From the NCBI GenBank assembly GCA_963705255.1, contig OY970061.1, positions 928,001-992,000 on the forward strand: a stretch of DNA of 64,000 nucleotides, read 5' to 3'. The position numbers and the translations under genes are program-made. Positions 2,271-32,714 of this stretch are shown one piece after another. The stretch comes from an uncultured Methanoregulaceae archaeon. Its GTDB lineage: Archaea > Halobacteriota > Methanomicrobia > Methanomicrobiales > Methanospirillaceae. The notes beneath the pieces were generated by a model. It did no database searches. It saw only the letters and a program-made list of their open reading frames with translations, and had not been told where the DNA came from. Every line of letters starts with the position of its first letter. The first letter of the stretch is position 1.

Positions 2271-3679
2271 ATGAGTATCGGGGTGTGCTATCCGGACAAA
2301 TATGCTGTTGAAGAGGCATTCCAGCTCCTCAAGGTGCCGTGGGACTGGTATGTGCCCGGACAGCAGTACGATGTCGTGATTGCCCGCAAAGCTGAAGTAC
2401 CGGGCTGCACGGAAAACCTCATCGATCTAACGGGCAATGACATTTTTAAAAAAATCAGCGATCTGCTCACGACCGGTCAGCCCCATCTCCACGAACCGGT
2501 GTGCGATCTCCTGATTGACGCTCTCCGGCAGGAACTGAAAAAATACACGATCCTTGTGGAGATCCCTCCCGCGCCATGGGGGCACCCCTACATGGTGGCC
2601 CTTACTCATGACGTTGATATCACTTCCGTCAGGGAATGCCGTATTCTCACGGTGGGCTATGCGGCATACCAGTGTTTTAAACAAGGGAATTTCCGTGCCG
2701 GCTTTAACCTGTTTTGTGCCAAGTGCGGGATTGGACCGGATCCCTGGTCACTCTTTGAACACTGGAAGACCCTTGAGAATCGGCTTGATGTTCGTTCAAC
2801 TTTCTTTTTCGTACCCCAAAAGGATGACCCGGGCGTGCGGGCGCACCCGTACCGGGCGGTCGTGTATGACATTAAAGAGAAAACGGATTTACGGCGCGAT
2901 CTGGATCATGGCGGATGGGAAGCCGGTGTTCACGGCATTGATAATTGGGCTGACGCACAACGCGGAAGACAGGAGATGGCAGCACTTGGGCTTGAGGGAA
3001 AGACGCCCGGCAACCGGACGCACTGGCTCCTTTTTGACCAGAACAGCTGGAAGGTACTGGATGAAGCGGGGTACTCGTACGACACAACATTCGGGTACAA
3101 TGACGATGCCGGTTTCCGTGCGGGTACCCTGCAGGTATACCGGCCGCGCACTGCACAGACCCTCCTGGAACTCCCGCTCCACATCCAGGACCTCGGGCTC
3201 GTTGGGAAATTCTGCTGGGCGCCCACTGACAATGGCTGGGTGAAAACACCGTGCATGCATCTCGATGAGCACGCGGCACGCATGTACTGTGACCGTATTT
3301 TTGATTATGCAAAAAAATTGGGGGGGCTGTGACGATACTCTGGCACTACGAGAACCTGACACCGCCACGGGACTGGTCCGGGCTCTACGCGGAACTGGTG
3401 AAAAGTGCCCAAGCTGACGATGCATGGGTGACGACTGCAGGAGCGGTGGTGGAGTGGTTTAAAGACCGGAGACGAGTCAAGATAAGCTGTAAAAATGAGA
3501 GAGACAGGCTCACCATCTCTGCGGAGGGTGGTCCCCCTCCCGGTTCTGTACCTCCATTAATGGTGAGAATACACAATCCTAATAATCGACAAATAAGCGT
3601 AAATACTGAATCAGACCCAAGGAGAGAGTATATCGACATCAAACTGAACATGAAGACAATTACGGTATTATTCTCATGA
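2271..3679 (+). CDS. Polysaccharide deacetylase (CE4/NodB-like) family protein, frameshifted at G7 run 3320-3326
   Basis: ALTHDVD, STFFF, EAGVHG, GNRTHWL, YDTT, ELPL motifs. Adding one G gives LGGAVTILWH and joins ORF 3329..3679. Confidence 0.8.
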
Positions 3680-4377
3680 TCCTGCAAACAATTTTCCTGA
3701 AAATAAAAAGTCCTGCTGTGGCGGATTCCTGGTTCATGCATACTTCAGTTATGCAATACATTATGAAAATCTGCTTAAAATTTTTTAATTACCTTGCCCC
3801 GAAAACCCGTCTCTGCCAAAGGGTAAAGGCTGGATCTCTTGGAAAGGGAAATGAAATTCACCCGACTGCAATAATTGACTATGACCGGGTAATTATCGGA
3901 GATTTCTGTACTATTGAAAAAAATGTGGTAATTGAAAAAAATACAATTATCGGAAATCACGTAACCATCGGACAGGGAGTGGTGATCGGGTCTGAAGGGT
4001 TTGAATTACGGAGGATTGCGGGTGAAATCATACCGGTAGTCCATCTTGGCGGAGTCATCATTCACGACAACGTACATATCTGCCCTCATGCATGTATCGA
4101 TAAAAGCTCTCTTGGAGAATATACCGAAATAGGAGAATCATCGGTCATAATGGCTGGCGTCGAAGTCGGTCATGGAATAAAAATTGGACAACATGTAACC
4201 GTATCTGAAGGAACCATGATCGGGGGATATGCAAGGATTGGAAATCACGTAAAGATTGGCAAGCGCTGTTCGATAACAGATGGAATATCTCTGGGCGAAG
4301 ACGTGGTTATACCGGATTATTCTGTCGTGACCCGCGAGGTAAAGGGACCTTCGGGAGATGTTTCTCAATGTTCTTGA
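3676..4377 (+). CDS. LpxD-like left-handed beta-helix (hexapeptide) N-acyltransferase 1
   Basis: Hexapeptide repeats, IGSEGFE (LpxD-type IGxxGF), HLGGVIIHDNV, VGHG with His at the LpxD catalytic position. Confidence 0.8.
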   Translation: MILQTIFLKIKSPAVADSWFMHTSVMQYIMKICLKFFNYLAPKTRLCQRVKAGSLGKGNEIHPTAIIDYDRVIIGDFCTIEKNVVIEKNTIIGNHVTIGQGVVIGSEGFELRRIAGEIIPVVHLGGVIIHDNVHICPHACIDKSSLGEYTEIGESSVIMAGVEVGHGIKIGQHVTVSEGTMIGGYARIGNHVKIGKRCSITDGISLGEDVVIPDYSVVTREVKGPSGDVSQCS

Positions 4378-4422
4378 AATGGGATTACATTTCAGGATTG
4401 AAATGAGTTTCAGAGGATATTT

Positions 4423-5302
4423 ATGAAATTATCAGATTTCCTGTCGGAAAAAACGGAAATAATCCGGGATGGCATTTTTTCGTCACTGGGGACATTGTTT
4501 TCACACTATCCGCAACAGATAGTATATGCAGTTCGGGAAAATGAGGTAAAAAAAATTATTGACAATCCCTCCATTTCCTGTGTAATCACAACACCTTCTC
4601 TAATTTCCAGGTTCCCTGACGGGTGGGGCATTGCATCAGCTCGGGATCCTCAATATTCATTTTATTCCCTTCAGGTCCGTGCTGAGCCAATACCCGGAAT
4701 TTGTACTTCAGCCTTTTGCCAACCGGATTTCATCATCAGCGAAAATTCATCCGAGCACAGTCATTTCTGCGCGCAGCGTATCTATCGGAAGAGACGTTGT
4801 TATCGAAAAAAACGTTATCATCCATGAACAGACAATCATCGACGAAGGATCTGTCATCAGATCCAACAGTGTCATCGGAAACTCCCCGTTACCTGCAGGT
4901 GGTGCGACAAATGGGCAAGTGGTCCAACCTTCTGGCGGGGTGCATCTCCACCGTGATGTGGATATTCATGCAAATACACAACTCCATCGTGCAATCTTCA
5001 AAGGGTATACAGAGGTTGGTGAACAGACAAAAATCGACAACCTCGATACTATCGGACAGGGAACAACAATTGGAAAACGATGTCTGATCTGTGCCGGAGT
5101 AACGGTAGGTGAATCAGTAATAATTGGGGATGATGCATGGATCGGCCCGAATGTTATTCTTGAAAATCAGATCAGGATAGGAAACAACGTTTACATCACA
5201 CTTGGTTCCAGGGTGCCCAATGACATCGATGACGATAAAGTCGTGAAAGATAATTACGCAATTGATCGGAAACGATTCAAGAAAGTCATACGAGGCATGT
5301 GA
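4423..5302 (+). CDS. LpxD-like acyltransferase 2 with N-terminal domain (frameshift ~4675)
   Basis: N-terminal segment in 4423..4827 continues into hexapeptide repeats of 4631..5302; GGVHL, TKIDNL motifs. Confidence 0.78.
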
Positions 5303-5378
5303 CACGCATGATACAGATTTTAAAAAAACGCACGGTGTCCCTGTAACCCAAATACAGGAATGCGAGGTTAACCGATTT

Positions 5379-5747
5379 ATGCAGGACATCGGCATAGGTA
5401 CAGACATAGAAGAGATCAAGCGGTTTGAAAATCTCCGCGATCCTGCATTTGCCGCATTTCTCAGAAAGAATTTCACGGAGAACGAACTTGATTATTGTCT
5501 CTCAAAGGATGCTCCTGCCCCTCACCTTGCCGCACGGTATGCCGGCAAAGAAGCTGTGATAAAAGCGCTTTCCAGTCTGAACATCACCCATATATTTTAT
5601 CCTGCAATTGAGATCATAAACAACGAAACGGGTGTTCCGTACGTCAGGATTAATAAAGAGTACAACGAAAAAATGCATATAAAAATCAGTTTATCGCACA
5701 GTTCAGGAATGGCACTTGCATTTTGCATAATTTTACTCGAGGTATGA
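5379..5747 (+). CDS. acpS: Holo-ACP synthase (4'-phosphopantetheinyl transferase)
   Basis: GIGTDIEEI, AARYAGKEAVIKA and ISLSHS AcpS signatures. Confidence 0.95.
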   Translation: MQDIGIGTDIEEIKRFENLRDPAFAAFLRKNFTENELDYCLSKDAPAPHLAARYAGKEAVIKALSSLNITHIFYPAIEIINNETGVPYVRINKEYNEKMHIKISLSHSSGMALAFCIILLEV

Positions 5748-5748
5748 T

Positions 5749-5988
5749 ATGGCATCATTCGATGAGAATACGATAAAAAATATTTTTTGCGAAGTTCTCG
5801 GAATACCGGCACCGGAAGTTACCGACACGCTTGCCTATAACTCCTGCGCGCAGTGGGACTCCTTGAAACATCTCCAGATTGTGGCCATGATTGAAGAAAA
5901 ATTTGATATTGAGATTGATATGGATGATATCATCGCGATGGAAAATTACGGAAAAGTGAAGGAAATTCTCCATAAATATCTCACGTAA
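5749..5988 (+). CDS. Acyl carrier protein
   Basis: 79 aa, acidic, WDSL phosphopantetheine attachment motif, IEEKFDIEI; follows acpS by 1 bp. Confidence 0.93.
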   Translation: MASFDENTIKNIFCEVLGIPAPEVTDTLAYNSCAQWDSLKHLQIVAMIEEKFDIEIDMDDIIAMENYGKVKEILHKYLT

Positions 5989-5994
5989 CCGGTT

Positions 5995-7488
5995 ATGAAT
6001 TTCGTCGATTATCTCTTTGAACTGTGTCAAGATCCCCCAAAAGAGTGTATCCTATCCCGTGATGGCATCCTCACATACCGGGATCTGATATCCAAAGTTG
6101 ACGATCTCGCAGCATACCTGAATACAATCCTGGGAGGAGGAAACGAGTGCCTCCTGCTCTCGGAAAATACCCCGTTTTTTGTTATAGCCTATCTTGCGAT
6201 TATAAAGAGCGGGAACATGGCCCTGCTTGCAGAAACACGGATATCGGATGAACAGCTGGGAGTCATCTTCCGCGAATGTCATATCCAGGCATCATTTGTC
6301 CAGAAAAAATACCGGTCAAAGATCACAAACAACGGGAACGTATTTACCGAGGATCTCCTTCTGGTACTTCCGCACACAGAACGGTATATGAGCCCTCGCA
6401 TGGAGGACGATGATGTCGCAATCGTGATCTTCACCTCCGGGAGCACCGGCGCAAAGAAAGGCGTCATGCTCACGCATAAAAACCTGTGCGCCAACACGGG
6501 ATCGATAGTAAAGTACCTCGATCTGACATCGCACGACCGGATCTGCGCCACGCTCCCGTTCTTTTACTGCTATGGAGCATCGCTGCTGCATACCCACGTC
6601 AGGGCCGGCGGCAGCATCGTGCTCTCCAATAATATTTTCCTTGGCGGTGTCATACGGGATATCGATACCTTTTCCTGCACCGGATTTGCCGGTGTCCCGA
6701 GCACGTACCAGATCCTGATCAACAAGACCCCGTTTCTCAAAGAAAAACTCCCGACCCTCCGGTATATGATGCAGGCCGGTGGTCATCTGCCCGACAAGTA
6801 CATCCGATTGATCGCCGAAGCGTTCCCGGAAAAAAAGTTTTTTGTGATGTACGGCGCGACAGAAGCCACGGCCCGGCTTGCATATCTCCCCCCGGCACAG
6901 GTACTTACCCATATCGGTTCTATTGGAAAAGGCATCCCGGGCGTCACGCTCGAAGTACTCGACGAGAACGGGAAACCGGTACAACCCGGGGAGACCGGTG
7001 AGATCACCGCACGCGGTGACAATATCATGAAGGGCTATTATGGGGATCCAGAAGGTACGCAAAGCGTCATAAAAAACGGGCGGCTTTATACCGGGGATAT
7101 TGCCACCGTTGATGATGACGGGTATATCTATATCACAGGGCGGGCAAAAAATTTTATTAAATCCGGGGGGTACCGTATCTCCCCGAATGAAATCGAGGAT
7201 TTTATCTGTTCCCTGGACGGTGTCACCGGTTGTGTGGTGCTCGGGCTGCCAGATGAGATCATGGGCGAGGCTGTGGTTGCAGTTGTCCAGCCGGATAACG
7301 CCCCGGAAACGGCACTCAAAGAAAAGATCCTCACGCGGTGCACGCAGCACCTGCCATCCTACAAGATCCCAACCGCCATATATTTTGTCCGGGAGTTCCC
7401 GCTCAACGCATCCAACAAAGTGGACAGGCAGGCGATTGCGGCCTCAATTGTTGCCAAGCGGGAAAAAAAAGAAGGAGGATTACAATAA
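5995..7488 (+). CDS. AMP-dependent acyl-CoA/acyl-ACP ligase (ANL superfamily)
   Basis: FTSGSTGAKKG P-loop, YGATEA, LYTGD, GRAK, NKVDR. Confidence 0.93.
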   Translation: MNFVDYLFELCQDPPKECILSRDGILTYRDLISKVDDLAAYLNTILGGGNECLLLSENTPFFVIAYLAIIKSGNMALLAETRISDEQLGVIFRECHIQASFVQKKYRSKITNNGNVFTEDLLLVLPHTERYMSPRMEDDDVAIVIFTSGSTGAKKGVMLTHKNLCANTGSIVKYLDLTSHDRICATLPFFYCYGASLLHTHVRAGGSIVLSNNIFLGGVIRDIDTFSCTGFAGVPSTYQILINKTPFLKEKLPTLRYMMQAGGHLPDKYIRLIAEAFPEKKFFVMYGATEATARLAYLPPAQVLTHIGSIGKGIPGVTLEVLDENGKPVQPGETGEITARGDNIMKGYYGDPEGTQSVIKNGRLYTGDIATVDDDGYIYITGRAKNFIKSGGYRISPNEIEDFICSLDGVTGCVVLGLPDEIMGEAVVAVVQPDNAPETALKEKILTRCTQHLPSYKIPTAIYFVREFPLNASNKVDRQAIAASIVAKREKKEGGLQ

Positions 7489-8615
7489 TGCCGAAAACCG
7501 AACCTGTCGCGACAAAGGACCCGACCCGGGGTGAACTCCTCAATCAGGCCCCGTACTTCTCGGAAGACCAGCAGAAAAACGAGTACCTCCTGCCGATCAT
7601 CAGGCAACAGCTAAAAACTGCCAGACACAACAACCGGCAGATTGATAATTTTTTCTCCAAACAGGGTATTAACATTAATGCCATTCAAAAACTGGAAGAT
7701 ATACCATATATCCCGGTACAGATGTTCAAGCTCTTCGATCTCAGGACCTGCCCGGAGCAGGAGATCGTAAAAGTCCTCCAGTCCAGCGGGACAACAGGCG
7801 GCACACCAAGCAGGATCCCGCTTGACAAAGCCACCACGTTAAACCAGATAAAAGCTCTCAAATGCATCCTATCTGAATACCTGGGGAAAAACCGGAAAAT
7901 ATTTCTTGTCATCGACCATGAAGGCATCAACAGCCCAAAAGTGGCGTTTTCCGCACGGACTGCCGGTGTCCGGGGCTTAAGCATCTATGCAAAAAAAACC
8001 TTTTACCTGCTCAGGGAGGAAGAGGGAAAACTTGTCCTGAATATGCCGGTTATCCGGGATATTGTCGAAAACTATTCGCACGAAGAGGTGTACGCATTCG
8101 GATTCACGTATATTATCTGGACCGTCTTTTACAAGCAGCTCAAAAAGGAGGGATTCCGGTTCTCCTTTGAGAACTTCATGCTGTTCCACGGTGGCGGCTG
8201 GAAGAAGATGCGGGATCTCGCGGTCTCAAAAGAGACGTTTTCAGAGACGATCGCCGCAATATTCGATACGCACCCGAACCGGATCCTGGATTTCTACGGG
8301 ATGGCCGAGCAGACTGGTATCATCTTTGTTGACTGCGAGTACGGCAACAAGCACGTGCCCTGCTTTTCCCAGGTCATCATCCGCGATCCATTCACACTTG
8401 AGCCCTGCGATATCGGCAAAACCGGGTTGATTGAGGTGATGAGCGTTCTTGCCGACAGTTATTACGACCAAGCGATCCTGACCGAGGATCTTGGCCTGCA
8501 GGTCGGTGTGGATGACTGTCCGTGCGGGCGCAAGGGCCGGTATTTCCGGTTTGTCTCGCGGGTGGAGAAAGCCGAGTTGCGCGGGTGCGGCGATACGTTC
8601 CGGGAGTCTCGCTGA
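7488..8615 (+). CDS. LuxE-like acyl-protein synthetase
   Basis: SSGTTG, HGGGWKK, FYGMAEQ, ILTEDLG and C-terminal RGCG with the acyl-accepting Cys. Confidence 0.9.
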   Translation: MPKTEPVATKDPTRGELLNQAPYFSEDQQKNEYLLPIIRQQLKTARHNNRQIDNFFSKQGININAIQKLEDIPYIPVQMFKLFDLRTCPEQEIVKVLQSSGTTGGTPSRIPLDKATTLNQIKALKCILSEYLGKNRKIFLVIDHEGINSPKVAFSARTAGVRGLSIYAKKTFYLLREEEGKLVLNMPVIRDIVENYSHEEVYAFGFTYIIWTVFYKQLKKEGFRFSFENFMLFHGGGWKKMRDLAVSKETFSETIAAIFDTHPNRILDFYGMAEQTGIIFVDCEYGNKHVPCFSQVIIRDPFTLEPCDIGKTGLIEVMSVLADSYYDQAILTEDLGLQVGVDDCPCGRKGRYFRFVSRVEKAELRGCGDTFRESR

Positions 8616-9919
8616 TGATTACCTGTTACCTTAGGGATGGAAAGTTTGAAAGGCAATCGTATCAGGATTTTGAGGAGATTGCCCGAAGTGTCGATACCTG
8701 CAGGGAAACCCTTGCTGCGATGCCGCTTGACGCCGTCATAAAAATCCTCGATGTGCTGGGAAAAAACGTACTCAAAAACCCGGAGATCAACACGCTCCCG
8801 GGAGTCAGTTATATCTCACTGTGGCTGCGCCGCGAGAACCTTGACCGGATCTGTCAGGTCAATTACTCCGATAAACGGTACCTCGATGGCTTTTGTAAAA
8901 ATGAGACAAATATCCTGATGATGGCACAGCCCCGGGGGATTGTATGCCACTGGATCGCGGCGAACATGCCGACCCTGGGATTCTTTTCGATTGTTCAGGC
9001 CCTCCTCTCAAAGAACGGCAGCATGGTTAAGATGCCTGAGGAGTACGTCCCGCTGATCCTGTCCATTCTCCGTGAATTCCCGGCAATTTCTGTAGATTAT
9101 GAGGGCACAACCTACTCAGGGAAAAAAGTGCTTGCCGCGATAGCTGTTGTAACCTTTGAAGGAAAATCCACGGAGGCCAGTGAGAAATTTTCCCTTGCCG
9201 CCGATTGCCGAATCATCTTTGGGGGAAGCGAAGCGATCCGCTCGATCTCGCGTCTTCCCTGCCGGGATCACTGCGAGACGATTATCTTTGGCCCGAAATA
9301 TTCGTTTGCCGTGTTCGATCGGGAATATATCGAATCGGATGGTTTTAAAAAATCCCTGGACCAGTTCGTAAAAGACATAGCAGTTTTTAACCAGATGGCA
9401 TGTTCTTCGCCGCATGTCCTGTTTCTGGTGAAAAGCCGGTACCCGCTGGATATGATAGTAGCGTGGCTGCGCGACTCCTTTGAGCGGCTGCCGGAGGCAC
9501 TCCGCAACCAGAAGATCTCGTCAGGCCTGTCGGTACATATTATTAATGCCCGGGCCCGGTACCTGTTGTCGGATGGGAAAAACTGCGTGGCATCCCATGA
9601 TCTGGGGTGGACTATCTTTATCGATCAGGATATCTGCCTGGAAGAGCCAATCCAGGGAAAATGCATTTTTACAAAAGAGATCACTACGGTGGATGAAGTA
9701 ATCCCCTTAGTAAACCGTAAGATCCAGGCAGTCTCGATCGGGATCCTCGACCCCGCAAAACGGGAATCATTTGCCAGGCAGGTCACGTGGGGGGGCGCGG
9801 ATCGGGTCGTCATTCCCGGGACTATGCACGACTTTATTCTGCCCTGGGACGGGATCATGACCCTCAATCGTCTGGTGCGATGGGTTATTCTGAGAGAGAA
9901 CCAGGGTTCGCAGGTTTGA
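8615..9919 (+). CDS. LuxC-like acyl-CoA/acyl-protein reductase
   Basis: PRGIVCHWIAAN, FGPKYSF, NQMACSSP (catalytic Cys), PWDG; start overlaps the luxE-like stop. Confidence 0.9.
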   Translation: MITCYLRDGKFERQSYQDFEEIARSVDTCRETLAAMPLDAVIKILDVLGKNVLKNPEINTLPGVSYISLWLRRENLDRICQVNYSDKRYLDGFCKNETNILMMAQPRGIVCHWIAANMPTLGFFSIVQALLSKNGSMVKMPEEYVPLILSILREFPAISVDYEGTTYSGKKVLAAIAVVTFEGKSTEASEKFSLAADCRIIFGGSEAIRSISRLPCRDHCETIIFGPKYSFAVFDREYIESDGFKKSLDQFVKDIAVFNQMACSSPHVLFLVKSRYPLDMIVAWLRDSFERLPEALRNQKISSGLSVHIINARARYLLSDGKNCVASHDLGWTIFIDQDICLEEPIQGKCIFTKEITTVDEVIPLVNRKIQAVSIGILDPAKRESFARQVTWGGADRVVIPGTMHDFILPWDGIMTLNRLVRWVILRENQGSQV

Positions 9920-10018
9920 TTAATATCAAACGCGGATTTTATTTCGCTGCAATTGCAAATGAGGTACCGGAATCCTTTTAATGATCTATAGGATGAGTAA
10001 GTTTGGGAGTGGTGGGAG

Positions 10019-10762
10019 ATGTTATTAAAAGGGAAAAATGCGGTAATAACCGGCTGTTTAAAAGGTATCGGCCGTTCGACATTGGATCTTTTTGCCCAGA
10101 ACGGGGCAAATGTCTGGGCATGTTGTCAGTATGAAAATGCCGATTTTGAGAAACACGTGGGAGAACTGGCAGCAAATAATAATGTGTCGATTACACCGGT
10201 TTATTTTGATTTCCTTGATCCGGAACAGATAAAAATAGCAGCTCATGCAATCAGAGAGTCAAAGCAACCTGTGGACATCCTTGTTAATGTTGCCGGTATG
10301 ACCTGTGATGCTTTGTTTCATATGACAACCATGGAGCAGATGAAAAAAGTTTTTGAAGTGAATTTTTTCTCCCAGATGCTTTTTACCCAGTACATCACCA
10401 AGAATATGATACGGCATAATTCCGGTAGTGTTATCAATATATCCTCCATATCTGCAATAGATGGTAATCCCGGGCAATTATCATATACTGCAAGTAAAGC
10501 TGCAGTTATCGGTGCAACAAAAACATTATCCGCCGAGTTGGCGGCATCCGGGATACGAGTTAATGCCATTGCCCCGGGCGTTATTAAAACAGATATGACA
10601 GAAAAACTGCCGGAAGAGGTCATGGCGAAATTTATGGCAAAAAGTGACCTTAAGCGCATGGGGCAACCGGCCGAAGTTGCAGAGGTCATTTTATTTTTAG
10701 CATCAGACCTGTCATCATATATTACCGGTCAGATAATCCGTGTCGATGGTGGAATAGGATAA
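10019..10762 (+). CDS. FabG-like SDR oxidoreductase 1
   Basis: TGxxxGIG, NVAG, YTASK, VNAIAPG, ITGQIIRVDGG. Confidence 0.9.
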   Translation: MLLKGKNAVITGCLKGIGRSTLDLFAQNGANVWACCQYENADFEKHVGELAANNNVSITPVYFDFLDPEQIKIAAHAIRESKQPVDILVNVAGMTCDALFHMTTMEQMKKVFEVNFFSQMLFTQYITKNMIRHNSGSVINISSISAIDGNPGQLSYTASKAAVIGATKTLSAELAASGIRVNAIAPGVIKTDMTEKLPEEVMAKFMAKSDLKRMGQPAEVAEVILFLASDLSSYITGQIIRVDGGIG

Positions 10763-10773
10763 AGGGTGAAAAA

Positions 10774-11514
10774 ATGCTGCTCAAGGATAAAAATATAATA
10801 ATCACGGGTTCTGCACGCGGAATCGGGAACGTCATACTTGAAACATTTGCCGCAAACGGGGCAAATGTTTGGGCTTGTGCACGTACGAAGACCGAAGAAT
10901 TTGAAGACAATGCACATGCGCTTTCTGAGAAATATCATGTGGAGATCTGGCCGGTCTATTTTGACCTGGTGGATCATGATCAGTTGAAGACCGCGGTAAA
11001 ATCAATTACTTCCGCAAAACGAACAGTTGATGCCCTTGTGAATAATGCCGGAGTGACATATAATGCATTGTTTCTCATGTCGCCCATAACAAAGATGCAT
11101 GAAGTATTTGAGGTAAATTTTTTTTCACCATTCGTATTCACACAATATATTGCTAAAACGATGATTCGGCAAAAAAAAGGGAGTATAATTAATATTTCCT
11201 CATCCGCAGGTATTGATGGTAATGCAGGTCGTTCTGTTTATGGTGCCAGCAAAGCAGCCGTTATTTGTGCAACAAAGGCAATGGCGGCAGAACTTGGCGA
11301 ATTCGGAGTGCGAGTAAATTCCATTGCACCCGGCATAACCCAGACGTCCATGATCTCCAGTATGACGGATAAAGTGATACAGGATACCATCCTTCAGACC
11401 GATATGAAACGTATTGGCAATCCTCATGATATTGCAAATACTGCTCTTTTTCTGGCATCAGATAAGTCATCATATTTGACCGGGCAAGTAATACGGGTGG
11501 ATGGCGGACTATAA
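10774..11514 (+). CDS. FabG-like SDR oxidoreductase 2 (tandem paralog)
   Basis: TGSARGIG, NNAG, YGASK, LTGQVIRVDGG. Confidence 0.9.
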   Translation: MLLKDKNIIITGSARGIGNVILETFAANGANVWACARTKTEEFEDNAHALSEKYHVEIWPVYFDLVDHDQLKTAVKSITSAKRTVDALVNNAGVTYNALFLMSPITKMHEVFEVNFFSPFVFTQYIAKTMIRQKKGSIINISSSAGIDGNAGRSVYGASKAAVICATKAMAAELGEFGVRVNSIAPGITQTSMISSMTDKVIQDTILQTDMKRIGNPHDIANTALFLASDKSSYLTGQVIRVDGGL

Positions 11515-11532
11515 TTTTTCTTTGTGTTAAAT

Positions 11533-12360
11533 ATGACTTCGAAAAACCAGATTATACAAAATATTGAGAAAATGGCAAACCGGATGCGCAAAAATGCGCT
11601 GGACCTAGCATTATCTGCAGGTAACAATGGTGCGCATCTTGGTTCAGGTTTGTCGATAATAGAAATAATGGCGGTTCTTTATGGGGGGATCATGAAAATC
11701 GATCCGAAAAATCCCCGCTGGGGGGAGAGGGACCGGTTTATTCTCAGTAAAGGGCACGGCACCTTGGGGTATTATACTGCCTTGGCTGAGGCGGGACTCA
11801 TCTCCTTTGAGGAACTTTCAACGTTCGAAAAAAACGGGGGATTTCTGCCAGGCCAGCCTGTCATGAATATGGATAAGGGCATTGAATTTTCAAGCGGCAG
11901 CCTAGGCCATGGCCTTTCACTGGGTGTAGGTGTGGCATTAGCTGGAAAGAAACGCGGCCAGAGTTATAAGGTTTATGTCTTAATGGGAGACGGGGAGTGT
12001 AATGAGGGATCAGTATGGGAAGCAGCGATGGCCGCAAAACATTATAAACTCTCAAACCTTGTCGCGATAATCGATGGAAATGACATGCAGTCAGATGGTG
12101 CAAGGTGTGATATTATGGCGGCAGACTATGAGACAATCTGGAAAGGGTTTGGCTGGGACGTCGCCACGGTAGATGGGCATAATGTGAGCAGTATATATGA
12201 AACTTTCCGTGCTGGTACAAGGACTGATATCCCCCGGGTAATTATTGCCAGGACCGTGAAAGGGAAGGGGGTTTCATTTATGGAATGCAATAACGAATGG
12301 CATCACAACCGGCTGACACAAGCTCAGTACGACGCGGCGATTAAGGAACTTGGTCCCTGA
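11533..12360 (+). CDS. Transketolase-like, N-terminal (ThDP-binding) subunit
   Basis: LSKGH, SGSLGHGL, GDGECNEG ThDP motif, TVKGKG. Confidence 0.93.
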   Translation: MTSKNQIIQNIEKMANRMRKNALDLALSAGNNGAHLGSGLSIIEIMAVLYGGIMKIDPKNPRWGERDRFILSKGHGTLGYYTALAEAGLISFEELSTFEKNGGFLPGQPVMNMDKGIEFSSGSLGHGLSLGVGVALAGKKRGQSYKVYVLMGDGECNEGSVWEAAMAAKHYKLSNLVAIIDGNDMQSDGARCDIMAADYETIWKGFGWDVATVDGHNVSSIYETFRAGTRTDIPRVIIARTVKGKGVSFMECNNEWHHNRLTQAQYDAAIKELGP

Positions 12361-12372
12361 AACGAGCTTACT

Positions 12373-13356
12373 ATGATTCAAATTAATTCATTGAATGCAA
12401 GATTATGGTCGAAATTGGGACAGCAGGGAACATTCGGCATTACGATGCTTGAATTAGGGAGGGATCTAGAGAACCTGATTGTACTTTCGGCAGATTTATG
12501 TTTAACCTCCGGATTAGATCGTTTCCGTTTACAATTTCCTGAAAAATTTTTGAATGTGGGAATCGCTGAACAAAATCTGGTAGGTATCTCTGCGGGACTT
12601 GCAAAAGAGGGCTATATCGTTTTTGCCACAACCTTTGCGAATTTTGCCGCTATGCGCAGTTACGAACAGGTGCGGCTGAACATGGGATATATGGGTTTAA
12701 ATATTAAACTGGTGGGTCTTGGAAGCGGCTTTGCCATGGGAATGTTTGGCAACACGCACTATGGTATTGAAGACGTTGCGTTAATGCGTGCAATACCGGG
12801 GCTTTGTATACTCTCTCCTTCCGATTGTACGGAAGTTGTGAAAGCTACTCAAGCTGTTGCCAAGTATCCCCGTCCGATATATCTGAGACTCACCGGCATT
12901 CTGAACAACCCAATCGTTAATAAAGAAGATTACCCGTTTGAAATCGGGAAGGCGATTCCGCTGAAAAGTGGTTCGGATATTGCAATTATCGCTACAGGGT
13001 CGATGGTATATCATTCTCTCGTTGCAGCTAAACTGCTTGAATCCAAAGGAATCTCTGCTGCTGTCATCAACATGCATACGATAAAACCGCTCGATACTGA
13101 AATAATAAATGCTGCATGCAGGGACGTGAAACTTATCGTAACCGTGGAAGAACATACTGTCATCGGAGGTCTGGGGGGAGCGGTCGCGGAATATTTGAGT
13201 GGTAAGCCCCCGGGTCCTCGTCAACTTACCATCGGTGTTCCTGATGCATTTCAAAAAGCCGGGAATTATCAGTACCTGCTTGAACAAAATGGTCTCACCG
13301 GCCCGCAAATCGCTGAGAGAATGAGCTCCACTTTCAATATCCTTGTCAAATCCTGA
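12373..13356 (+). CDS. Transketolase-like, C-terminal subunit
   Basis: LSADL, GIAEQN, THYGIED, TVEEH, GGLG. Confidence 0.93.
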   Translation: MIQINSLNARLWSKLGQQGTFGITMLELGRDLENLIVLSADLCLTSGLDRFRLQFPEKFLNVGIAEQNLVGISAGLAKEGYIVFATTFANFAAMRSYEQVRLNMGYMGLNIKLVGLGSGFAMGMFGNTHYGIEDVALMRAIPGLCILSPSDCTEVVKATQAVAKYPRPIYLRLTGILNNPIVNKEDYPFEIGKAIPLKSGSDIAIIATGSMVYHSLVAAKLLESKGISAAVINMHTIKPLDTEIINAACRDVKLIVTVEEHTVIGGLGGAVAEYLSGKPPGPRQLTIGVPDAFQKAGNYQYLLEQNGLTGPQIAERMSSTFNILVKS

Positions 13357-13529: not shown

Positions 13530-14592
13530 ATGCATAGATATACCCTTGGCCTTTTTTCCAACATGTTTCCACCTGAGCCTCCAAGGAGGCAAAGCGGGGT
13601 GATCCTAACCGATACCACCCGGGGAATATTTGTTAAAAGAATGGTGGATGATCTCGTTCAGCACGATGTTATCGTAAAAATGGCCGTAAAAAAAAGCGGG
13701 TCTCTTACAGGTTATGTTCCATTCATCTATCAGTCCTTAATGCTGGTGCACGATAGCGATGTCGATATTATGCAGGCCGAATATATTCCCCACAGTGGTG
13801 TGGTACCAGCATTATTTAAAAGAAAAAACTGCCCACTCGGTACTGAAATTCCATGGGGACGATGCACGGATCTTCCCGTTCAAAAATTCATTTTTCATGT
13901 CAGTGACCCGTGCGATGATCCGTCGATCGGATTATATCCTGACATCCAGCGAAGAGTTACGATCAATCCTTATTTCAATCGGGGCGCACCCTGAAAAAAC
14001 TTCTGCCGTTCATACGGGTGTGGATACGAATTTTTTCCGGCCCGCCCCAAAGGAACCTCTTCGAAAGGATCTCGGTCTGCCTCCGGAGGACCCGGTCTTT
14101 CTCTTTATTGGGAGGCTGCATCCTTGGAAAGGGATCAATGAACTGATCAGCGTTGCGGGTATGTGCAGAGAATTCCGGTTCGTGTTCATTGGACCGGGGG
14201 CCATCCCCCCCCATCCGGAAAACTGCATATTTCTCGGTTCGAAATCCCCAGAAGAGGTCAGGATGTGGTATAATATATCTGACTGTCTTCTCCTTCCCTC
14301 ATATACGGAGGGATTCCCCACGGTCATCATGGAGGCATTCGCTTGTGGTATACCCGCTATTGCGACTTACGTTGGAGGTTGCCCGGAACTTGTGGAGCCA
14401 GAAAAGACGGGGTTGCTTGTTCCTGCTCGTGATGTTCCGGCGCTTCACGGAGCGGTGCAGTGGGTTGGAACGCATGCCGATGAGCGGATTCGGATGGGGA
14501 TTGCGGCAAGGGCCGTAGCAGAGGAGCGGTTCGATCACACCATAATGGTGCAAAAACTTATTGGCATCCACGAGAGTCTCATCCGGAAATGA
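13530..14592 (+). CDS. Glycosyltransferase family 4 (frameshift ~13840)
   Basis: FIGRLHPWKG, PSYTEGFPTVIMEAFACGIP GT-B motif; N-terminal half in 13512..13994. Confidence 0.88.
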
Positions 14593-15160: not shown

Positions 15161-16091
15161 TCAGCGATGGCTATACCAGTCAAGTGTTTTTGCCAGTCCC
15201 TGTTTTATTGAATATTCCGGGGCAAATTTTAATTTCGAACGTGCCCTGCTGACATCGGCAACGGAATGAAGGATGTCCCCTTTCCTCGGAGGAAGATAGT
15301 GCGGATCCAATGTGGAGCCGGTCAAATCGCGGAGCAAACCGACGAGTACGTTGAGAGAAATCTGTTCCCCTCCCGCGATGTTAAAAATTCCTTCAATACT
15401 GCTCTCCATACCCAGAATGTTTGCCCGGACCACGTCATCGATAAAAACAAAGTCCCGGGTTTGTTGTCCATCACCGAAAATGACCGTGGACTCGTTGTTC
15501 AGCATGCGGATGATAAACTTGGGAATTACTGCAGCATATTCGGAATGGGGATCCTGACGGTCACCAAACACATTGAAATAACGCAGGCAGAGGGTGGGCA
15601 GACCATACAGGGACGAAAAAACGCTGCAATAGTATTCACCGGTAATTTTTGTTATTGCATAGGGGGAGAGTGGGGCCGGGGGCATATCCTCTCTTTTGGG
15701 TAACGCAGGGCTGTCCCCGTATACAGCAGCGGATGAGGCAAACACCACTTTTTTTATTCCACTATCCCGAGCGGCAAGAAGGATGTTTAACGTACCAGGT
15801 ACTGTTCACCTCATGCGTGTGTACAGGATCTCTGAGGGATTGTTGTACTGATGTAATTGCAGCCTCATGAAAAACCCCGTCCGCACCGCTGAACGTGTTT
15901 TTCAAAAGAACCGGGTCGGTCACACTCCCGCTCACAAAAGTGACGGCGCCTGAATTGTGGAGCATGAGGATATTCTCTAGTGTGCCACTGGACAGATCGT
16001 CAATAATTACTACTTCATCGCCCCGTTGTGCTAAAAAATCCACGATATGGGAACCGATAAATCCGCAGCCACCGGTTATAACATACTTCAT
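15161..16091 (-). CDS. NAD-dependent epimerase/dehydratase (GalE/WbpP-like), frameshift ~15790
   Basis: TGGCGFIGSH, ASSAAVYG, YAITK, RYFNVFG, TRDFV. Confidence 0.9.
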
Positions 16092-16225
16092 GGAAAATCC
16101 TTCTGTGGATGAAATGAATATAGGATGTATCAGGATAAAAAAACCGGTTGTACCGTGTCCTGATATTTCCATAAAAATAGAGAGATGTCATGAATATAAC
16201 AGAGTAATGCAGTGCAAACACTATT

Positions 16226-21587: not shown

Positions 21588-22465
21588 TTATAATTGAAGC
21601 CATGATTCCGGGATTAGATCCTGTGTATTGATATCCATTCGGTTGAACCATTTTTTTGGGGCGATAACAATTTTCTGGGGATTTGTGGAAAGCCATGCAC
21701 CCCACCAGCTGAACGAACTGTTTCCAATGATATGGTGCTGACACAGGCTCATCAGTCGCATATCTTCATAATCTTGATCGGGCCCGTTTAAATCAACAAT
21801 TGTCGTGGGATGGCCGGTATCCGCATTTTCTCGAACCCAATCCGGATCATCGGAGAATATAAAAAAATGAGGATTTTTTACATTTTCTTCGATAATACGT
21901 ATAGCCCTGTGGTAATACTCAAGTGAGCAGGTCCCATGATAGGCATTGGTCGTGGAATTCGACACATAATCCCCCCGGCGGAAATGGAGGTTCACGGATA
22001 CACAGGATCTGATCTGATCTGCCATTTTCTCAGTGGGGTTGTCGGGTTCTGTCAAAGGAGTAAATTCAGACCGAATGAGATGTTCAATATTCTTGAAATA
22101 TTTTTCGCTCTGCCAGTAGCCTTCAAGATAAACATCGTTTTTGCATTTCAGGATATTGGGATCATAGAAGAAATGAGGTTCCCGGTAAATGTTTCTCCGA
22201 TAATAGGGCACGGAGTACACGGCCAGATTCTCTAGGGTACGGATACCCCGGTTCGGCCATGAAATCTGACACACTCAATTTCAGGAACAGATGCAATATC
22301 TGCATGGATGGCGTAGTGACCAAGACTGTAATGCCGCAGGGAATCGTCATTAAATCCAGTGAGATCCAGTTTCAACGGGACATTATGCATGCAGGACAGG
22401 CGCCGGCCGAGGGCATACTGGAACATCTGATTGCCAAGGCCACCGACAAGACGTGTAATGATCAT
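21588..22465 (-). CDS. Alpha-1,2-fucosyltransferase (GT11), frameshift ~22250
   Basis: GGLGNQMFQYA, GYWQSEKYF, HFRRGDY, FSDDPDW, NSSFSWWGAWL. Confidence 0.93.
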
Positions 22466-28344: not shown

Positions 28345-28470
28345 GGAATCACCTGCAGGAGTTTACATTTTGTGAGAAGTTCCTGCAAACCCACACGTTA
28401 CGTGTAATTGTTAAAAATATGCTTTTCGGTCCTTTTAATGACCGCGGCTTTTTTTGGAAAAGATTCACTA

Positions 28471-29517: not shown

Positions 29518-29736
29518 AATGCATCAAGTATAACTACATATAAAATCCGCAAAAATTTCAAAGTATTGGATACTTGTGCAGGAAAACCGGAAAATCAAAG
29601 CGGGATCGTTCATGGCGGAAAGATCTCAAAGAAAAAGCCTCATCCGGTGGTTGACCTTTTTGTTCAAACCCCTTCGACGATAAAATCCCAATTATTTTAT
29701 GATTATTGCTTATACCTGAAAGAATAATGGAAAAAA

Positions 29737-30349: not shown

Positions 30350-30449
30350 CAATTCACCTTTTAAATTCATGTCATGCCATATAACAGATTGTTCGGACTT
30401 TTTCTCTATTTCTCTATGTATGTCAGTCTTTGTCAAAAAAACGTTTAAA

Positions 30450-32285: not shown

Positions 32286-32535
32286 GGCTCTTCAAAAAAT
32301 TATAATAATGAGGCCGTGATGTCGATCACGCCCGACTGGGCGATCACGGCAACCGCGATAATGACGCCGGCCATCTCGAGGTTATACAAGTCCGGTTTTT
32401 GCGCTTTTTCCCGAGCCGACGGGCAGTAACAGGGTACTCCCGGAAAAAATCCCGGACAGAAACCGGCAGAACTATCTTCAAGTAAAAGAATGGCCTCAGG
32501 AAACTTCGTTCCGGCTCCGAAAAATCCCGGAAAAA

Positions 32536-32647: not shown

Positions 32648-32714
32648 ACAAAAGTGCACAATAAAAAGGCCGTAAAAATTATTAAAGGTATTCATGAGTC
32701 GTCGGGATAAACAC

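What the first reader, a model, noticed from the sequence alone, without database searches (positions are those of the whole stretch)
2271..13356. Acyl-carrier-protein / LuxCE / transketolase operon inside an archaeal surface-glycan locus
Seen: twelve co-oriented genes, mostly abutting or overlapping: deacetylase, two LpxD-like, AcpS, ACP (WDSL), acyl-AMP ligase, LuxE (RGCG), LuxC (QMACSSP), two FabG-like SDRs and split transketolase. Glycosyltransferases follow. No ketosynthase, LuxD or LuxAB is present in the window. Established: archaea make isoprenoid lipids and ACP/AcpS are largely absent from the domain; LuxE plus LuxC reduce an activated acid to an aldehyde; similar lux/ACP/transketolase cassettes occur in bacterial O-antigen and flagellin glycosylation islands. 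Inference: a horizontally acquired, ACP-dependent module that makes an unusual acyl or branched-chain substituent for S-layer, archaellin or exopolysaccharide glycans in a methanogen. I know of no characterised archaeal example.
Basis: partly seen in the sequence, partly recalled or inferred. Interest (0 to 1): 0.85.

Follow-up and report, generated by a model that had tools for sequence, protein, structure and literature searches.

The report
Carrier-protein acyl-sugar operon in a methanogen
A peat and sediment methanogen carries a twelve-gene operon, built around its only acyl carrier protein, that most likely makes an unusual hydroxylated acyl group and attaches it to an amino sugar of its surface glycans, the archaeal version of a poorly understood cassette from bacterial flagellin-sugar islands.

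Summary
Window 2271-13356 carries twelve co-oriented genes: a deacetylase-fold protein, two LpxD/LpxA-like hexapeptide transferases, AcpS, ACP, an AMP-ligase, LuxE, LuxC, two SDRs and a split transketolase. They lie between topoisomerase VI and a glycosyltransferase/flippase/archaellin island of a Methanoregula-like methanogen (mcrA present).

Two genes look frameshifted in the window. Short-read contigs from two and three other studies contradict both indels, so these are assembly errors.

The join is not chimeric. G020 and at least five related MAG loci have the same cluster beside top6A.

The core AcpS-ACP-ligase-LuxE-LuxC-SDR recurs in many archaeal lineages, and LuxE passes its cut-off in 29 of 301 genomes of the order. 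It always lies next to genes that create or acylate a sugar amine. The sampled bacterial cassettes (ACP-FabG-ligase-LuxE-LuxC) lack AcpS and form the other side of the LuxE tree.

In this genome the cluster holds the only ACP, the only PPTase and the only transketolase.

The transketolase and its SDRs replace the usual cassette SDR. This transketolase lacks the residues that canonical enzymes use for sugar phosphates.

Best reading: ACP-borne synthesis of a short hydroxylated acyl group that is N-linked to a glycan sugar. The chemistry is inferred. I rate it a new variant of a known, uncharacterised kind.

The parts
2271..3679 (+). Deacetylase-fold protein (CE4-like core plus a C-terminal beta domain). 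It is 469 aa once the extra G behind 3319 is read. In the window it is split into 2271-3332 and 3329-3679.
   Evidence: The indel at 3319 appears in contigs of X1 and X3. The frame is open for 469 aa with it. Intact 469-aa orthologues exist in G020 and L006. Fold matches to polysaccharide deacetylases. Invariant THDVD and His columns.
3676..4377 (+). LbH1: hexapeptide acyltransferase of 233 aa without an N-terminal domain. It keeps the His that aligns with the His of LpxD's 'IAH' stretch.
   Evidence: Hexapep 90.5 bits. The best solved relatives are LpxD, then LpxA. The His aligns with the LpxD His. It is below the LpxD equivalog cut-off (113 against 242.5).
4423..5302 (+). LpxD-like acyltransferase with an N-terminal domain. 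It is 292 aa once the surplus base at 4676 is left out. In the window it is split into 4423-4827 and 4631-5302.
   Evidence: A one-base deletion appears in contigs of X1, X3 and X4. The frame is open for 292 aa. A profile of 7 orthologues hits LpxD at 1.9e-34, including the N-terminal part. The LpxD 'IAH' His column holds Gln or Pro here. It co-occurs with LuxE in the same 2 of 41 genomes.
5379..5747 (+). AcpS-type 4'-phosphopantetheinyl transferase. The ORF runs from 5262; the likely start is the ATG at 5379.
   Evidence: ACPS 58.1 bits. TIGR00556 76.6 bits against a cut-off of 45.35. It is the only PF01648 hit in the genome.
5749..5988 (+). Acyl carrier protein, 79 aa, with a W-D-S attachment motif.
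   Evidence: PP-binding 37.5 bits. It is the only PF00550 hit in the genome. W, D and S are invariant in 13 of 13 aligned cassette ACPs.
5995..7488 (+). AMP-forming ligase, 497 aa, the presumed ACP loader.
   Evidence: AMP-binding 223.4 bits and AMP-binding_C 55.9 bits. It is below every NCBIfam cut-off; the best are long-chain fatty-acid ligase (309.5 against 476) and the exosortase-associated ligase (306.7 against 592).
7488..8615 (+). LuxE-type acyl-protein synthetase, 375 aa. Its start overlaps the ligase stop by one base.
   Evidence: LuxE 183.1 bits. Junctions read. The C-terminal RGC[GS] Cys is present in 42 of 42 rows.
8615..9919 (+). LuxC-type acyl reductase, 434 aa. Its start overlaps the LuxE stop by one base.
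   Evidence: LuxC 209.3 bits. Junction read. The Cys of 'ACSS' is invariant in alignment A1 and in 44 of 44 rows (this motif was also a search pattern).
10019..10762 (+). SDR1, a short-chain dehydrogenase of the transketolase-linked type.
   Evidence: adh_short_C2 205.7 bits. SDR tree.
10774..11514 (+). SDR2, a paralogue of the same transketolase-linked type.
   Evidence: adh_short_C2 194.6 bits. SDR tree.
11533..12360 (+). Split transketolase, N-terminal (ThDP-binding) chain.
   Evidence: Transketolase_N 150 bits. The best solved relative is the split-chain transketolase 6yak at 1.9e-68. It is the only PF00456 hit in the genome.
12373..13356 (+). Split transketolase, C-terminal (pyrimidine-binding) chain. 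Three substrate-pocket columns differ from canonical transketolases.
   Evidence: Transket_pyr 101.4 bits and Transketolase_C 98.8 bits. 6yaj at 4e-68, with alignments. Column table for 11 cassette-linked chains.
13530..14592 (+). GT4 glycosyltransferase, the first gene of the glycan island that follows. It is split over two frames in the window.
   Evidence: Glycos_transf_1 108.2 bits. The L006 orthologue matches in frame 3 and then frame 1.

Best explanation
This is the archaeal form of the 'ACP / AMP-ligase / LuxE / LuxC / SDR' cassette known from bacterial flagellin and O-antigen sugar islands. It is extended by its own AcpS, a sugar deacetylase, two LpxD/LpxA-like acyltransferases and a non-canonical split transketolase.

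Proposed working (all steps are inferred unless marked otherwise):
1. AcpS converts the cluster's ACP to the holo form. Archaea have no housekeeping enzyme for this, and here both proteins are the only ones of their kind in the genome (shown).
2. The ligase adenylates a small carboxylic acid, most economically a dicarboxylic or keto acid, and loads it on holo-ACP.
3. LuxE adenylates the free second carboxyl and hands it through its C-terminal Cys to the Cys of LuxC. LuxC reduces it to an aldehyde.
4. In transketolase-less relatives a cassette SDR reduces the aldehyde to an alcohol, giving a hydroxy-acyl-ACP. This parallels the 2,4-dihydroxybutanoyl ('tetronate') route proposed for Vibrio cholerae O1.
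5. In this window that SDR is replaced by a transketolase whose pocket lacks the sugar-phosphate residues, plus two SDRs of another type. I propose that the transketolase adds a two-carbon ketol unit to the ACP-borne aldehyde and that the SDRs reduce the new keto group. The product would be a polyhydroxy acyl chain.
6. The deacetylase frees the amine of a nucleotide- or lipid-linked N-acetyl sugar. The hexapeptide transferases move the acyl group from ACP to it.
7. The glycosyltransferases and the flippase downstream put the sugar into a surface glycan (archaellin, S-layer or another).
For: Gene identities.

Real and intact:
- The same cluster lies beside top6A in G020 at 73-75% DNA identity and in L006, L008 and L010.
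- Both frameshifts are contradicted by contigs of 2 and 3 studies.

Dedicated carrier system:
- The genome has one PP-binding, one ACPS and one Transketolase_N hit, all in the cluster.
- It has no FabD and no LuxD, and only a distant thiolase-like ketosynthase hit. So ACP is not fed by fatty-acid synthesis and no condensation step is encoded.

Conserved unit:
- ACP-ligase-LuxE-LuxC keep one order in the archaeal-type and bacterial-type loci.
- AcpS was detected in 20 of 27 archaeal-type loci. Four of the 7 misses are contigs that begin at LuxE or LuxC, and one has AcpS three genes away.
- AcpS was detected in 0 of 19 bacterial-type loci.

Link to sugar amines. Immediately next to the cassette in other archaea lie:
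- a DegT aminotransferase with a nucleotidyltransferase and a cupin (L011, L012, L015);
- a PF01522 deacetylase (L021, L023);
- hexapeptide or GNAT transferases and GT2.

Acyl-ACP use:
- Both hexapeptide proteins are closest to LpxD and then LpxA among solved proteins.
- The LpxD-like gene is found in exactly the two LuxE-bearing genomes of 41.

Catalytic thiols: the LuxE Cys is present in 42 of 42 rows and the LuxC Cys in 44 of 44.

Transketolase as an alternative tail:
- All 14 SDRs from transketolase-bearing loci fall on one side of one branch, against 27 SDRs from transketolase-less loci (SH-aLRT 81). The 14 come from archaea, Kurthia zopfii, an Acidobacteriaceae MAG and Saccharibacillus deserti.
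- Their sister taxa without transketolase (K. populi, Terracidiphilus, S. sacchari, other Methanoregula) carry the other SDR type.

Non-canonical pocket:
- Three columns hold His, Asp and Arg in the genuine split transketolase 6yaj and in human transketolase.
- In those columns 0 of 11 cassette-linked chains have these residues.
- That these residues bind the substrate phosphate and the C2-hydroxyl is recalled from the transketolase literature.

Precedents:
- The V. cholerae ligase RfbL/WbeL is described as activating 2,4-dihydroxybutanoic acid for CoA or the carrier RfbK (passages of PMC12208996; wbeL is needed for O1 antigen, PMC3441752).
- The Aeromonas strain with this cassette has a 376.14 Da pseudaminic-acid derivative and an unexplained 102 Da moiety. 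By my own arithmetic these fit a dihydroxybutanoyl group (C4H6O3, 102.03; 316.13 - 42.01 + 102.03 = 376.15).
Against: - No product, substrate or modified glycan is known for any member, bacterial or archaeal.
- The ligase's nearest named families are long-chain fatty-acid ligases (309.5 bits, below the cut-off of 476). This favours the lipid rival.
- The 292-307 aa LpxD-like family has Gln or Pro where LpxD has its 'IAH' His, so it may be inactive, regulatory or use another base. Only LbH1 keeps that His.
- The deacetylase-fold family is much wider than the cassette (13 of 41 genomes against 2 of 41). Its link to ACP chemistry is by position only.
- Transketolase_N also occurs in 5 of 24 other genomes of the genus that have no LuxE. 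Four of the five examined there are also non-canonical, but of another pattern.
- The SDR split has only moderate support (81) on a quick tree.
- The bacterial loci were found with peptide patterns taken from archaeal LuxC, so they are a biased sample.
- The window's own transketolase has Gln where 9 of 10 relatives keep an Arg.
Confidence: 0.6

Rival explanations
1. Lipidation. The ligase loads a fatty acid on ACP and the hexapeptide transferases make an N- (and O-) fatty-acylated sugar, a lipid-A-like or lipoglycan anchor. LuxE/LuxC supply a fatty aldehyde or alcohol.
For: The ligase is nearest to long-chain fatty-acid ligases. The transferases are nearest to LpxD and LpxA, which use long acyl-ACPs. 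The set of deacetylase plus two hexapeptide transferases mirrors the LpxA/LpxC/LpxD logic. Authors of the bacterial islands suggested a 'liposugar' (PMC7874193).
Against: No ketosynthase, FabD or LuxD is present, and there is no other ACP user in the genome. A FabG-type SDR has no 3-keto substrate without a condensing enzyme. A transketolase has no obvious place in fatty-acyl chemistry. All family scores are below the equivalog cut-offs.
Confidence: 0.15
2. Two separate modules. The transketolase and its SDRs act on a nucleotide sugar, making a two-carbon branch or a higher-carbon sugar, independently of the ACP cassette. The cassette makes a simple hydroxy-acyl group.
For: Transketolase_N occurs without LuxE in 5 of 24 other genomes of the genus. 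G020 has the cassette without transketolase. The GC content of the SDR/transketolase block differs from that of ligase-LuxE-LuxC (0.42-0.48 against 0.51-0.52).
Against: In archaea and in three bacterial lineages the transketolase block sits directly against the cassette and replaces the cassette's own SDR rather than adding to it. The cassette-linked transketolases share one pocket pattern that the LuxE-less ones do not.
Confidence: 0.2
3. The cluster makes a free small molecule (an aldehyde, an alcohol or a signal) unrelated to glycans. Its place in the glycan island is incidental.
For: LuxC/LuxE release a free aldehyde in bioluminescence (established knowledge).
Against: Sugar-amine-forming and acyl- or glycosyl-transferase genes are adjacent in unrelated archaeal lineages and in bacterial glycosylation islands. 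The genes are translationally coupled to the transferases.
Confidence: 0.04
4. Artefact or relic: either a chimeric assembly with bacterial DNA or a decaying pseudogene cluster.
For: The window has two apparent frameshifts. The GC content is a mosaic. The genome is a single contig with only 89.5% completeness.
Against: The same cluster lies beside top6A in G020 and in several MAG loci. Contigs of three studies cover the cluster, and they read both indel sites differently from the window. The archaeal LuxE sequences form their own group.
Confidence: 0.01

Closest known systems
ACP / FabG / AMP-ligase / LuxE / LuxC cassette of bacterial flagellin glycosylation islands (Aeromonas group II, Enterobacteriaceae)
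   Same: It has the same five protein families. The order ligase-LuxE-LuxC is the same. It is embedded among glycosyltransferases of a motility-filament or surface glycan locus, and its function is also unknown (passages of PMC7874193 and PMC4875605; loci L032-L049).
   Different: The archaeal form carries its own AcpS (20 of 27 loci against 0 of 19). Its SDR sits behind LuxC instead of between ACP and ligase. LuxC is only 21-26% and LuxE 34-42% identical to the bacterial proteins. The two sets lie on opposite sides of a long branch. The window adds a deacetylase, two hexapeptide transferases and a transketolase.
Vibrio cholerae O1 tetronate genes rfbK-L-M-N-O (wbeK-O)
   Same: A carrier protein, an AMP-ligase, a LuxC/LuxE-like protein, an alcohol dehydrogenase and an acyltransferase are proposed to make 2,4-dihydroxybutanoyl and put it on the amine of perosamine (passages of PMC12208996 and PMC3441752). 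The domain make-up of RfbN, RfbM and RfbO is recalled from Morona et al. 1995, which is not held. One source names the Methanospirillum hungatei homologue 'RfbN' (P0035, 72% identical).
   Different: RfbN is a fusion (recalled), whereas here LuxE and LuxC are separate. The V. cholerae set has no AcpS, deacetylase or transketolase. I could not compare sequences directly, and that pathway is itself only proposed.
LuxCDE fatty-acid reductase of luminous bacteria
   Same: Pfam membership of LuxE and LuxC, and the conserved thiols of both.
   Different: LuxD and LuxAB are absent. The scores are far below the equivalog cut-offs (86.5 against 550 and 72.3 against 750).
LpxA / LpxC / LpxD steps of lipid A synthesis
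   Same: The logic is acyl-ACP-dependent hexapeptide transferases combined with N-deacetylation of a UDP-sugar. These are the best solved relatives of both transferases.
   Different: The deacetylase has a CE4-like fold, not that of LpxC. The scores are below the cut-offs. The LpxD-like protein lacks the His of the 'IAH' stretch.
Split-chain transketolase of Carboxydothermus hydrogenoformans (6yak/6yaj)
   Same: Two-chain architecture, with E-values of 1.9e-68 and 4e-68.
   Different: The three pocket columns that hold His, Asp and Arg in that enzyme and in human transketolase hold Gly/Ser/Thr, hydrophobic residues or Ser, and Gly/Ala in all 11 cassette-linked chains.
VimE-type UDP-diacetamido-sugar deacetylase (NCBIfam NF053580)
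   Same: It is the only named family that the first gene touches, and the logic of deacetylation before re-acylation is shared.
   Different: The match is 28.4 bits against a cut-off of 440 and covers the last 100 residues only. This is a lead, not membership.

Membership tests
LuxE acyl-protein synthetase (PF04443) | Pfam gathering score | tested here: met
   183.1 bits against 24.9.
LuxE acyl-protein synthetase (PF04443) | NCBIfam equivalog score for the luminescence LuxE | tested here: not met
   86.5 bits against 550.
LuxE acyl-protein synthetase (PF04443) | Cys near the C-terminus that carries the acyl group (role recalled) | tested here: met
   RGC[GS] is present in 42 of 42 aligned rows, archaeal and bacterial.
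LuxC acyl reductase (PF05893) | Pfam gathering score and active-site Cys | tested here: met
   209.3 bits against 21. The Cys is invariant in A1 and in 44 of 44 rows. This motif was also a search pattern, so the count is partly by construction.
LuxC acyl reductase (PF05893) | NCBIfam equivalog score for the luminescence LuxC | tested here: not met
   72.3 bits against 750.
Lux fatty-acid reductase system | LuxD transferase and LuxAB luciferase alongside | tested here: not met
   PF02273 has no hit in the genome. The only PF00296 hit is at 2.33 Mb.
Acyl carrier protein (PF00550) | Pfam score and the Ser of the D-S-L attachment motif | tested here: met
   37.5 bits against 20.8. W-D-S is invariant in 13 of 13 rows.
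Acyl carrier protein (PF00550) | Phosphopantetheinylated in the cell | not testable with these tools
   Needs intact-mass measurement.
AcpS-type phosphopantetheinyl transferase | Family scores | tested here: met
   PF01648 58.1 bits against 25. TIGR00556 76.6 against 45.35. The acpS equivalog domain scores 58.5 against 59.8, just under its cut-off.
LpxD N-acyltransferase | Equivalog score | tested here: not met
   LbH1 scores 113 against 242.5. The C-part of the LpxD-like protein scores 94.8 against 242.5 and 104.5 against 207.
LpxD N-acyltransferase | His of the 'IAH' stretch (catalytic role recalled) | tested here: not met
   In the 7-row LpxD-like profile this column is Gln or Pro. In LbH1 the His is kept.
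LpxD N-acyltransferase | N-terminal nucleotide-binding domain | tested here: inconclusive
   The N-part of the LpxD-like profile aligns to residues 26-145 of 4e75 at 43.3 bits. LbH1 has no such domain.
Polysaccharide deacetylase (CE4, PF01522) | Pfam match | tested here: not met
   No Pfam family for the window protein or for the G020 protein.
Polysaccharide deacetylase (CE4, PF01522) | Fold | tested here: met
   Foldseek probability 1.00 and TM (target) 0.59-0.60 to 3rxz, 1z7a and 3cl6. PelA, HP0310, Agd3 and ArnD are also matched. The model has pLDDT 79 but only 47-63 over residues 181-280.
Polysaccharide deacetylase (CE4, PF01522) | Asp/His metal and catalytic residues | tested here: inconclusive
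   Invariant T-H-D-V-D and several invariant His in 26 sequences. Their position in the pocket was not examined.
Transketolase | Domain set in two chains, and closeness to a proven split transketolase | tested here: met
Transketolase | Pocket His, Asp and Arg that hold sugar-phosphate substrates (roles recalled) | tested here: not met
   0 of 11 cassette-linked chains have them in the aligned columns. 6yaj, human transketolase and L054 do have them.
Bacterial glycosylation-island cassette (ACP, FabG, ligase, LuxE, LuxC) | All five families adjacent and lying in a glycan locus | tested here: met
Bacterial glycosylation-island cassette (ACP, FabG, ligase, LuxE, LuxC) | Same lineage of proteins as the bacterial cassettes | tested here: not met
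   Archaeal LuxE (20 rows) lies on one side of a branch with support 99. The bacterial sample is biased.
V. cholerae rfbK-O tetronate pathway | Sequence relatedness to RfbK, L, N and O | not tested
   No V. cholerae sequence was available in the tools. There is only one source's 'RfbN' name on an archaeal homologue.

The most novel reading that the evidence does not exclude
A transketolase that has lost its sugar-phosphate pocket works on an aldehyde held on (or made beside) an acyl carrier protein. A sugar-like polyhydroxy acid would then be assembled on ACP: carboxylate to aldehyde by LuxE/LuxC, addition of two carbons by the transketolase, then reduction by the SDRs. The product is amide-linked to a surface-glycan sugar. 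This would be a new way to build acyl chains on a carrier protein. It would also be the main reason why some archaea keep ACP and AcpS at all.
Probability: 0.2. Interest if true: 0.85.

Novelty: new variant of a known kind. Interest (0 to 1): 0.6.

Why it matters
ACP and AcpS are held to be missing from nearly all archaea (PMC3533463 and bioRxiv 10.1101/2024.07.05.601840). What the few archaeal copies do has not been described in the papers I could search.

In this genome they are dedicated parts of a glycan-decoration cassette. The cassette recurs in about a tenth of the species sampled in this methanogen order, including genomes whose source names are cultured strains.

The same cassette is unexplained in bacterial flagellin islands. 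The comparison here gives it a testable chemistry for both domains: the two alternative tails, the altered transketolase pocket, and the 102 Da coincidence in Aeromonas.

Tried and rejected
- Complex prediction of three copies of the G020 LpxD-like protein with its ACP gave no verdict (score 0.00). It says nothing either way.
- No RNA holder was listed among the sequencing runs, so expression is untested.
- A sequence search of solved structures with the deacetylase-fold protein gave nothing useful (one hit at E 0.61). The fold search was needed instead.
- The search for fused LuxC forms among longer proteins found only 3, the best an 825-aa LuxE-LuxC fusion at 32% identity. No protein named RfbN appeared, so the link to V. 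cholerae rests on passages, on one source's name and on recall.
- Morona et al. 1995 and Lombard et al. 2012 (MBE) are not held. What I say of them is recalled or taken from papers that cite them.
- Literature searches for an archaeal description gave nothing relevant: 2 papers, both bacterial; 0; 0; 2, irrelevant; archaellum papers, listing only; in PMC10117864 I saw passages.
- Supplements are closed. The gene tables of PMC7874193 and PMC4875605 may hold details that I could not see.

Rejected readings:
- Pseudogene decay and a chimeric join.
- A housekeeping role for the transketolase. It was not found in 35 of the 40 relatives searched, including G020.
- ACP fed by fatty-acid synthesis.
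- Phase variation at the A7/G7 run of the deacetylase gene, by analogy with wbeL. The contigs of X1 and X3 agree on the in-frame length, so an assembly error is the simpler reading.

Full report
**What is there.**
The window is G000:C1:928001-992000 of a 2.6 Mb single-contig genome with 89.5% completeness. The genome encodes mcrA. Sources name the close homologues of the cluster's proteins Methanoregula.

From 2271 to 13356 twelve genes lie on the + strand with overlaps or gaps of a few bases. Several are joined as ATGA or TAATG/TGATG. Pfam and NCBIfam identify eleven of them:
- two hexapeptide transferases;
- an AcpS-type transferase;
- a 79-aa carrier protein;
- an AMP-forming ligase;
- LuxE and LuxC;
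- two short-chain dehydrogenases;
- the two chains of a split transketolase.

The first gene has no Pfam family. A model of its intact orthologue (pLDDT 79, pTM 0.83) matches polysaccharide deacetylases best. Its family keeps an invariant T-H-D-V-D and several invariant His.

Upstream lie topoisomerase VI B and A. Downstream lie GT4, GT2 and GT11 transferases, UDP-GlcNAc 2-epimerase, a Wzx-type flippase, GDP-mannose dehydratase, an epimerase/reductase and an archaellin gene.

**The frameshifts are assembly errors.**
The window splits the deacetylase gene at an A7/G7 run and splits the second transferase near 4676. Contigs of public runs read these sites differently:
- X1 (99% or more alike) and X3 (another study) have one more G behind 3319.
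- X1, X3 and X4 (three studies) lack one base at 4676.

With these readings the frames run for 469 and 292 aa and align over their length with the orthologues. G020 and L006 have both genes intact. A third split, in the GT4 gene after the cluster, shows against the L006 orthologue. A single contig with only 89.5% of marker genes fits an assembly with many small indels.

**Not a chimera.**
G020 has top6B, top6A, the deacetylase, both transferases, AcpS, ACP, ligase, LuxE and LuxC in the same order, at 73-75% DNA identity across both the topoisomerase genes and the cluster. One of its proteins is identical to a protein that a source names Mboo_1737 of Methanoregula boonei 6A8. Loci L006, L008 and L010 also have the deacetylase directly behind top6A.

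**Distribution.**
- Among 41 relatives, LuxE was found in 2 (G000 and G020).
- Among 301 genomes drawn from the order, it passes the curated cut-off in 29, in all six families.
- The 120 best LuxC homologues (48% identity or more) carry only archaeal names where a source names them: Methanoregula, Methanospirillum, Methanoculleus, Methanofollis, Methanogenium, Methanosphaerula, Thermoplasmata and Altiarchaeia.
- A scan of species-representative genomes gave 45 loci.

In the synteny table, the 27 loci with LuxC at 39-86% identity are archaeal, except a KSB1 MAG and Clostridium homopropionicum. They keep AcpS-ACP-ligase-LuxE-LuxC-SDR. AcpS was detected in 20 of the 27. Four of the 7 misses are contigs that begin at LuxE or LuxC, and L027 has AcpS three genes away.

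The 19 loci with LuxC at 21-26% identity are bacterial. They have ACP-SDR-ligase-LuxE-LuxC and AcpS in 0 of 19. That bacterial order is the one described for Aeromonas group II islands.

In a quick maximum-likelihood tree of 42 LuxE sequences, the 20 rows labelled Archaea lie on one side of a branch (support 99). C. homopropionicum is sister to them and the KSB1 row is nested inside. Inside the archaeal group the order of lineages does not follow taxonomy.

Caveat: the bacterial loci were found with peptide patterns taken from the archaeal alignment. The sample is therefore biased and the tree is unrooted. The GC content of the cluster is a mosaic: 0.41-0.44, 0.51-0.52 and 0.42-0.48, against 0.546 for the genome.

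**A dedicated carrier system.**
The genome has one PP-binding hit, one ACPS hit and one Transketolase_N hit, all in this cluster. It has no FabD and no LuxD. Its only ketosynthase-family hit is a 23.5-bit stretch at 2.11 Mb, of the kind that the four archaeal control genomes also give. So the ACP cannot be fed by malonyl units, no condensation step is encoded, and the ligase is the only visible loader.

**Link to amino sugars.**
In the Methanoregula group the cassette follows a deacetylase and two transferases. Elsewhere it directly follows one of these:
- a DegT/DnrJ aminotransferase with a nucleotidyltransferase and a cupin (L011, L012, L015);
- a PF01522 deacetylase (L021, L023);
- a hexapeptide transferase (L024, L027).

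A GNAT-like protein and GT2 lie downstream. Different ways of making a free sugar amine are thus coupled to the same cassette.

Both transferases of the window are closest to LpxD and then LpxA among solved proteins. The LpxD-like one occurs in exactly the two LuxE-bearing genomes of 41. One point cuts against a simple reading. The LpxD-like family has Gln or Pro where LpxD has the His of its 'IAH' stretch, while LbH1, which has no N-terminal domain, keeps it. The two may work together, or only one may be catalytic.

**The transketolase tail.**
Transketolase chains accompany the cassette in the window, in 7 archaeal loci and in 3 bacterial loci (Kurthia zopfii, an Acidobacteriaceae MAG, Saccharibacillus deserti).

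All 14 SDRs of these loci fall on one side of a branch, against the 27 SDRs of transketolase-less loci (SH-aLRT 81). Their near relatives without transketolase (K. populi, Terracidiphilus, S. sacchari, other Methanoregula) have the other SDR type. So 'cassette SDR' and 'other SDR plus transketolase' are alternatives at the same place.

The enzyme is closest to the proven split transketolase 6yak/6yaj. In three columns 6yaj and human transketolase have His, Asp and Arg, which by my recall bind the substrate phosphate and the C2-hydroxyl. In those columns none of the 11 cassette-linked chains has these residues. A transketolase of a LuxE-less relative (L054) has them.

Transketolase is not housekeeping here. 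It was found in 5 of 24 other genomes of the genus and in 0 of 16 genomes of other families.

**Mechanism.**
Two adenylating enzymes, one carrier, one thioester reductase and no condensing enzyme are most simply explained by an acid with two reactive ends. One end is fixed on ACP by the ligase. The other is reduced by LuxE/LuxC to an aldehyde. The aldehyde is then either reduced, or lengthened by a ketol unit and reduced.

This follows the route proposed for the 2,4-dihydroxybutanoyl group of V. cholerae O1 (the details of RfbM, N and O are recalled). In Aeromonas piscicola AH-3, which has the bacterial cassette, the flagellin glycan holds a 376.14 Da pseudaminic-acid derivative and an unknown 102 Da moiety. 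By my arithmetic both fit a dihydroxybutanoyl group. The paper does not say so.

None of these steps is shown for any member of the family. The lipid reading and the reading with two separate modules remain open.

**Verdict.**
This is a new variant of a known but uncharacterised cassette. Its features are testable:
- an in-cluster AcpS;
- the only ACP in the genome;
- two alternative tails;
- a transketolase with an altered pocket.

Noticed in passing
window 3319, 4676 and about 13816-13838; X4 alone also at 5322: The assembly carries small indels that short-read contigs or orthologues contradict, three of them within 12 kb. Together with 89.5% completeness for a single contig, this suggests that many genes of this genome are falsely frameshifted.
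   Followed up: partly
window 15161-15748 (-) and 15762-16172 (-); 21588-22274 (-): An NAD-epimerase ORF matches only profile positions 111-240, and a GT11 (fucosyltransferase family) ORF matches only from profile position 118. They are either truncated genes or further indels.
   Followed up: no
window 27472-30436 (-): GDP-mannose 4,6-dehydratase, an epimerase/reductase and an archaellin gene lie side by side, next to GT11. This hints at a fucose-type sugar in the filament glycan.
   Followed up: no
G002, G008, G022, G027, G036: ACPS-family hits occur in five relatives in which LuxE was not found, three of them inside open frames of 274-298 aa. Other carrier-protein modules therefore seem to exist in this order.
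   Followed up: no
G218:C1:2652805-2653884 (804-aa open frame) and G113 (552 aa); P0241 (825 aa): A second, more distant LuxE-type domain lies in long open frames, and there is a LuxE-LuxC fusion protein. These may be the fused 'RfbN-like' form.
   Followed up: no
L013 (KSB1 MAG) and L030 (Clostridium homopropionicum): Two bacterial records carry the archaeal-type cassette. L013 has AcpS, ACP and an archaeal-type SDR; L030 has ACP, ligase, LuxE and LuxC, but no AcpS or SDR was detected there. This may reflect transfer between the domains or, for the MAG, a binning error.
   Followed up: partly
L055, L056, L057 (transketolases of LuxE-less relatives): These chains show yet another non-canonical pocket pattern. 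Their neighbourhoods were not examined.
   Followed up: no
window 9928-10014: One contig of run X3 (a relative at 90-99% identity) skips 85 bases of the spacer between LuxC and SDR1 (table 5).
   Followed up: no
PMC7874193 (Aeromonas piscicola AH-3): The 'unknown 102 Da moiety' and the 376.14 Da pseudaminic-acid derivative of a strain with the bacterial cassette both fit a dihydroxybutanoyl group by my arithmetic. This is a lead for the bacterial field.
   Followed up: partly
window 31059-35725: A radical-SAM gene (+) and a biotin carboxylase (-) lie here, followed by an unexamined 512-aa ORF just past the archaellin gene.
   Followed up: no
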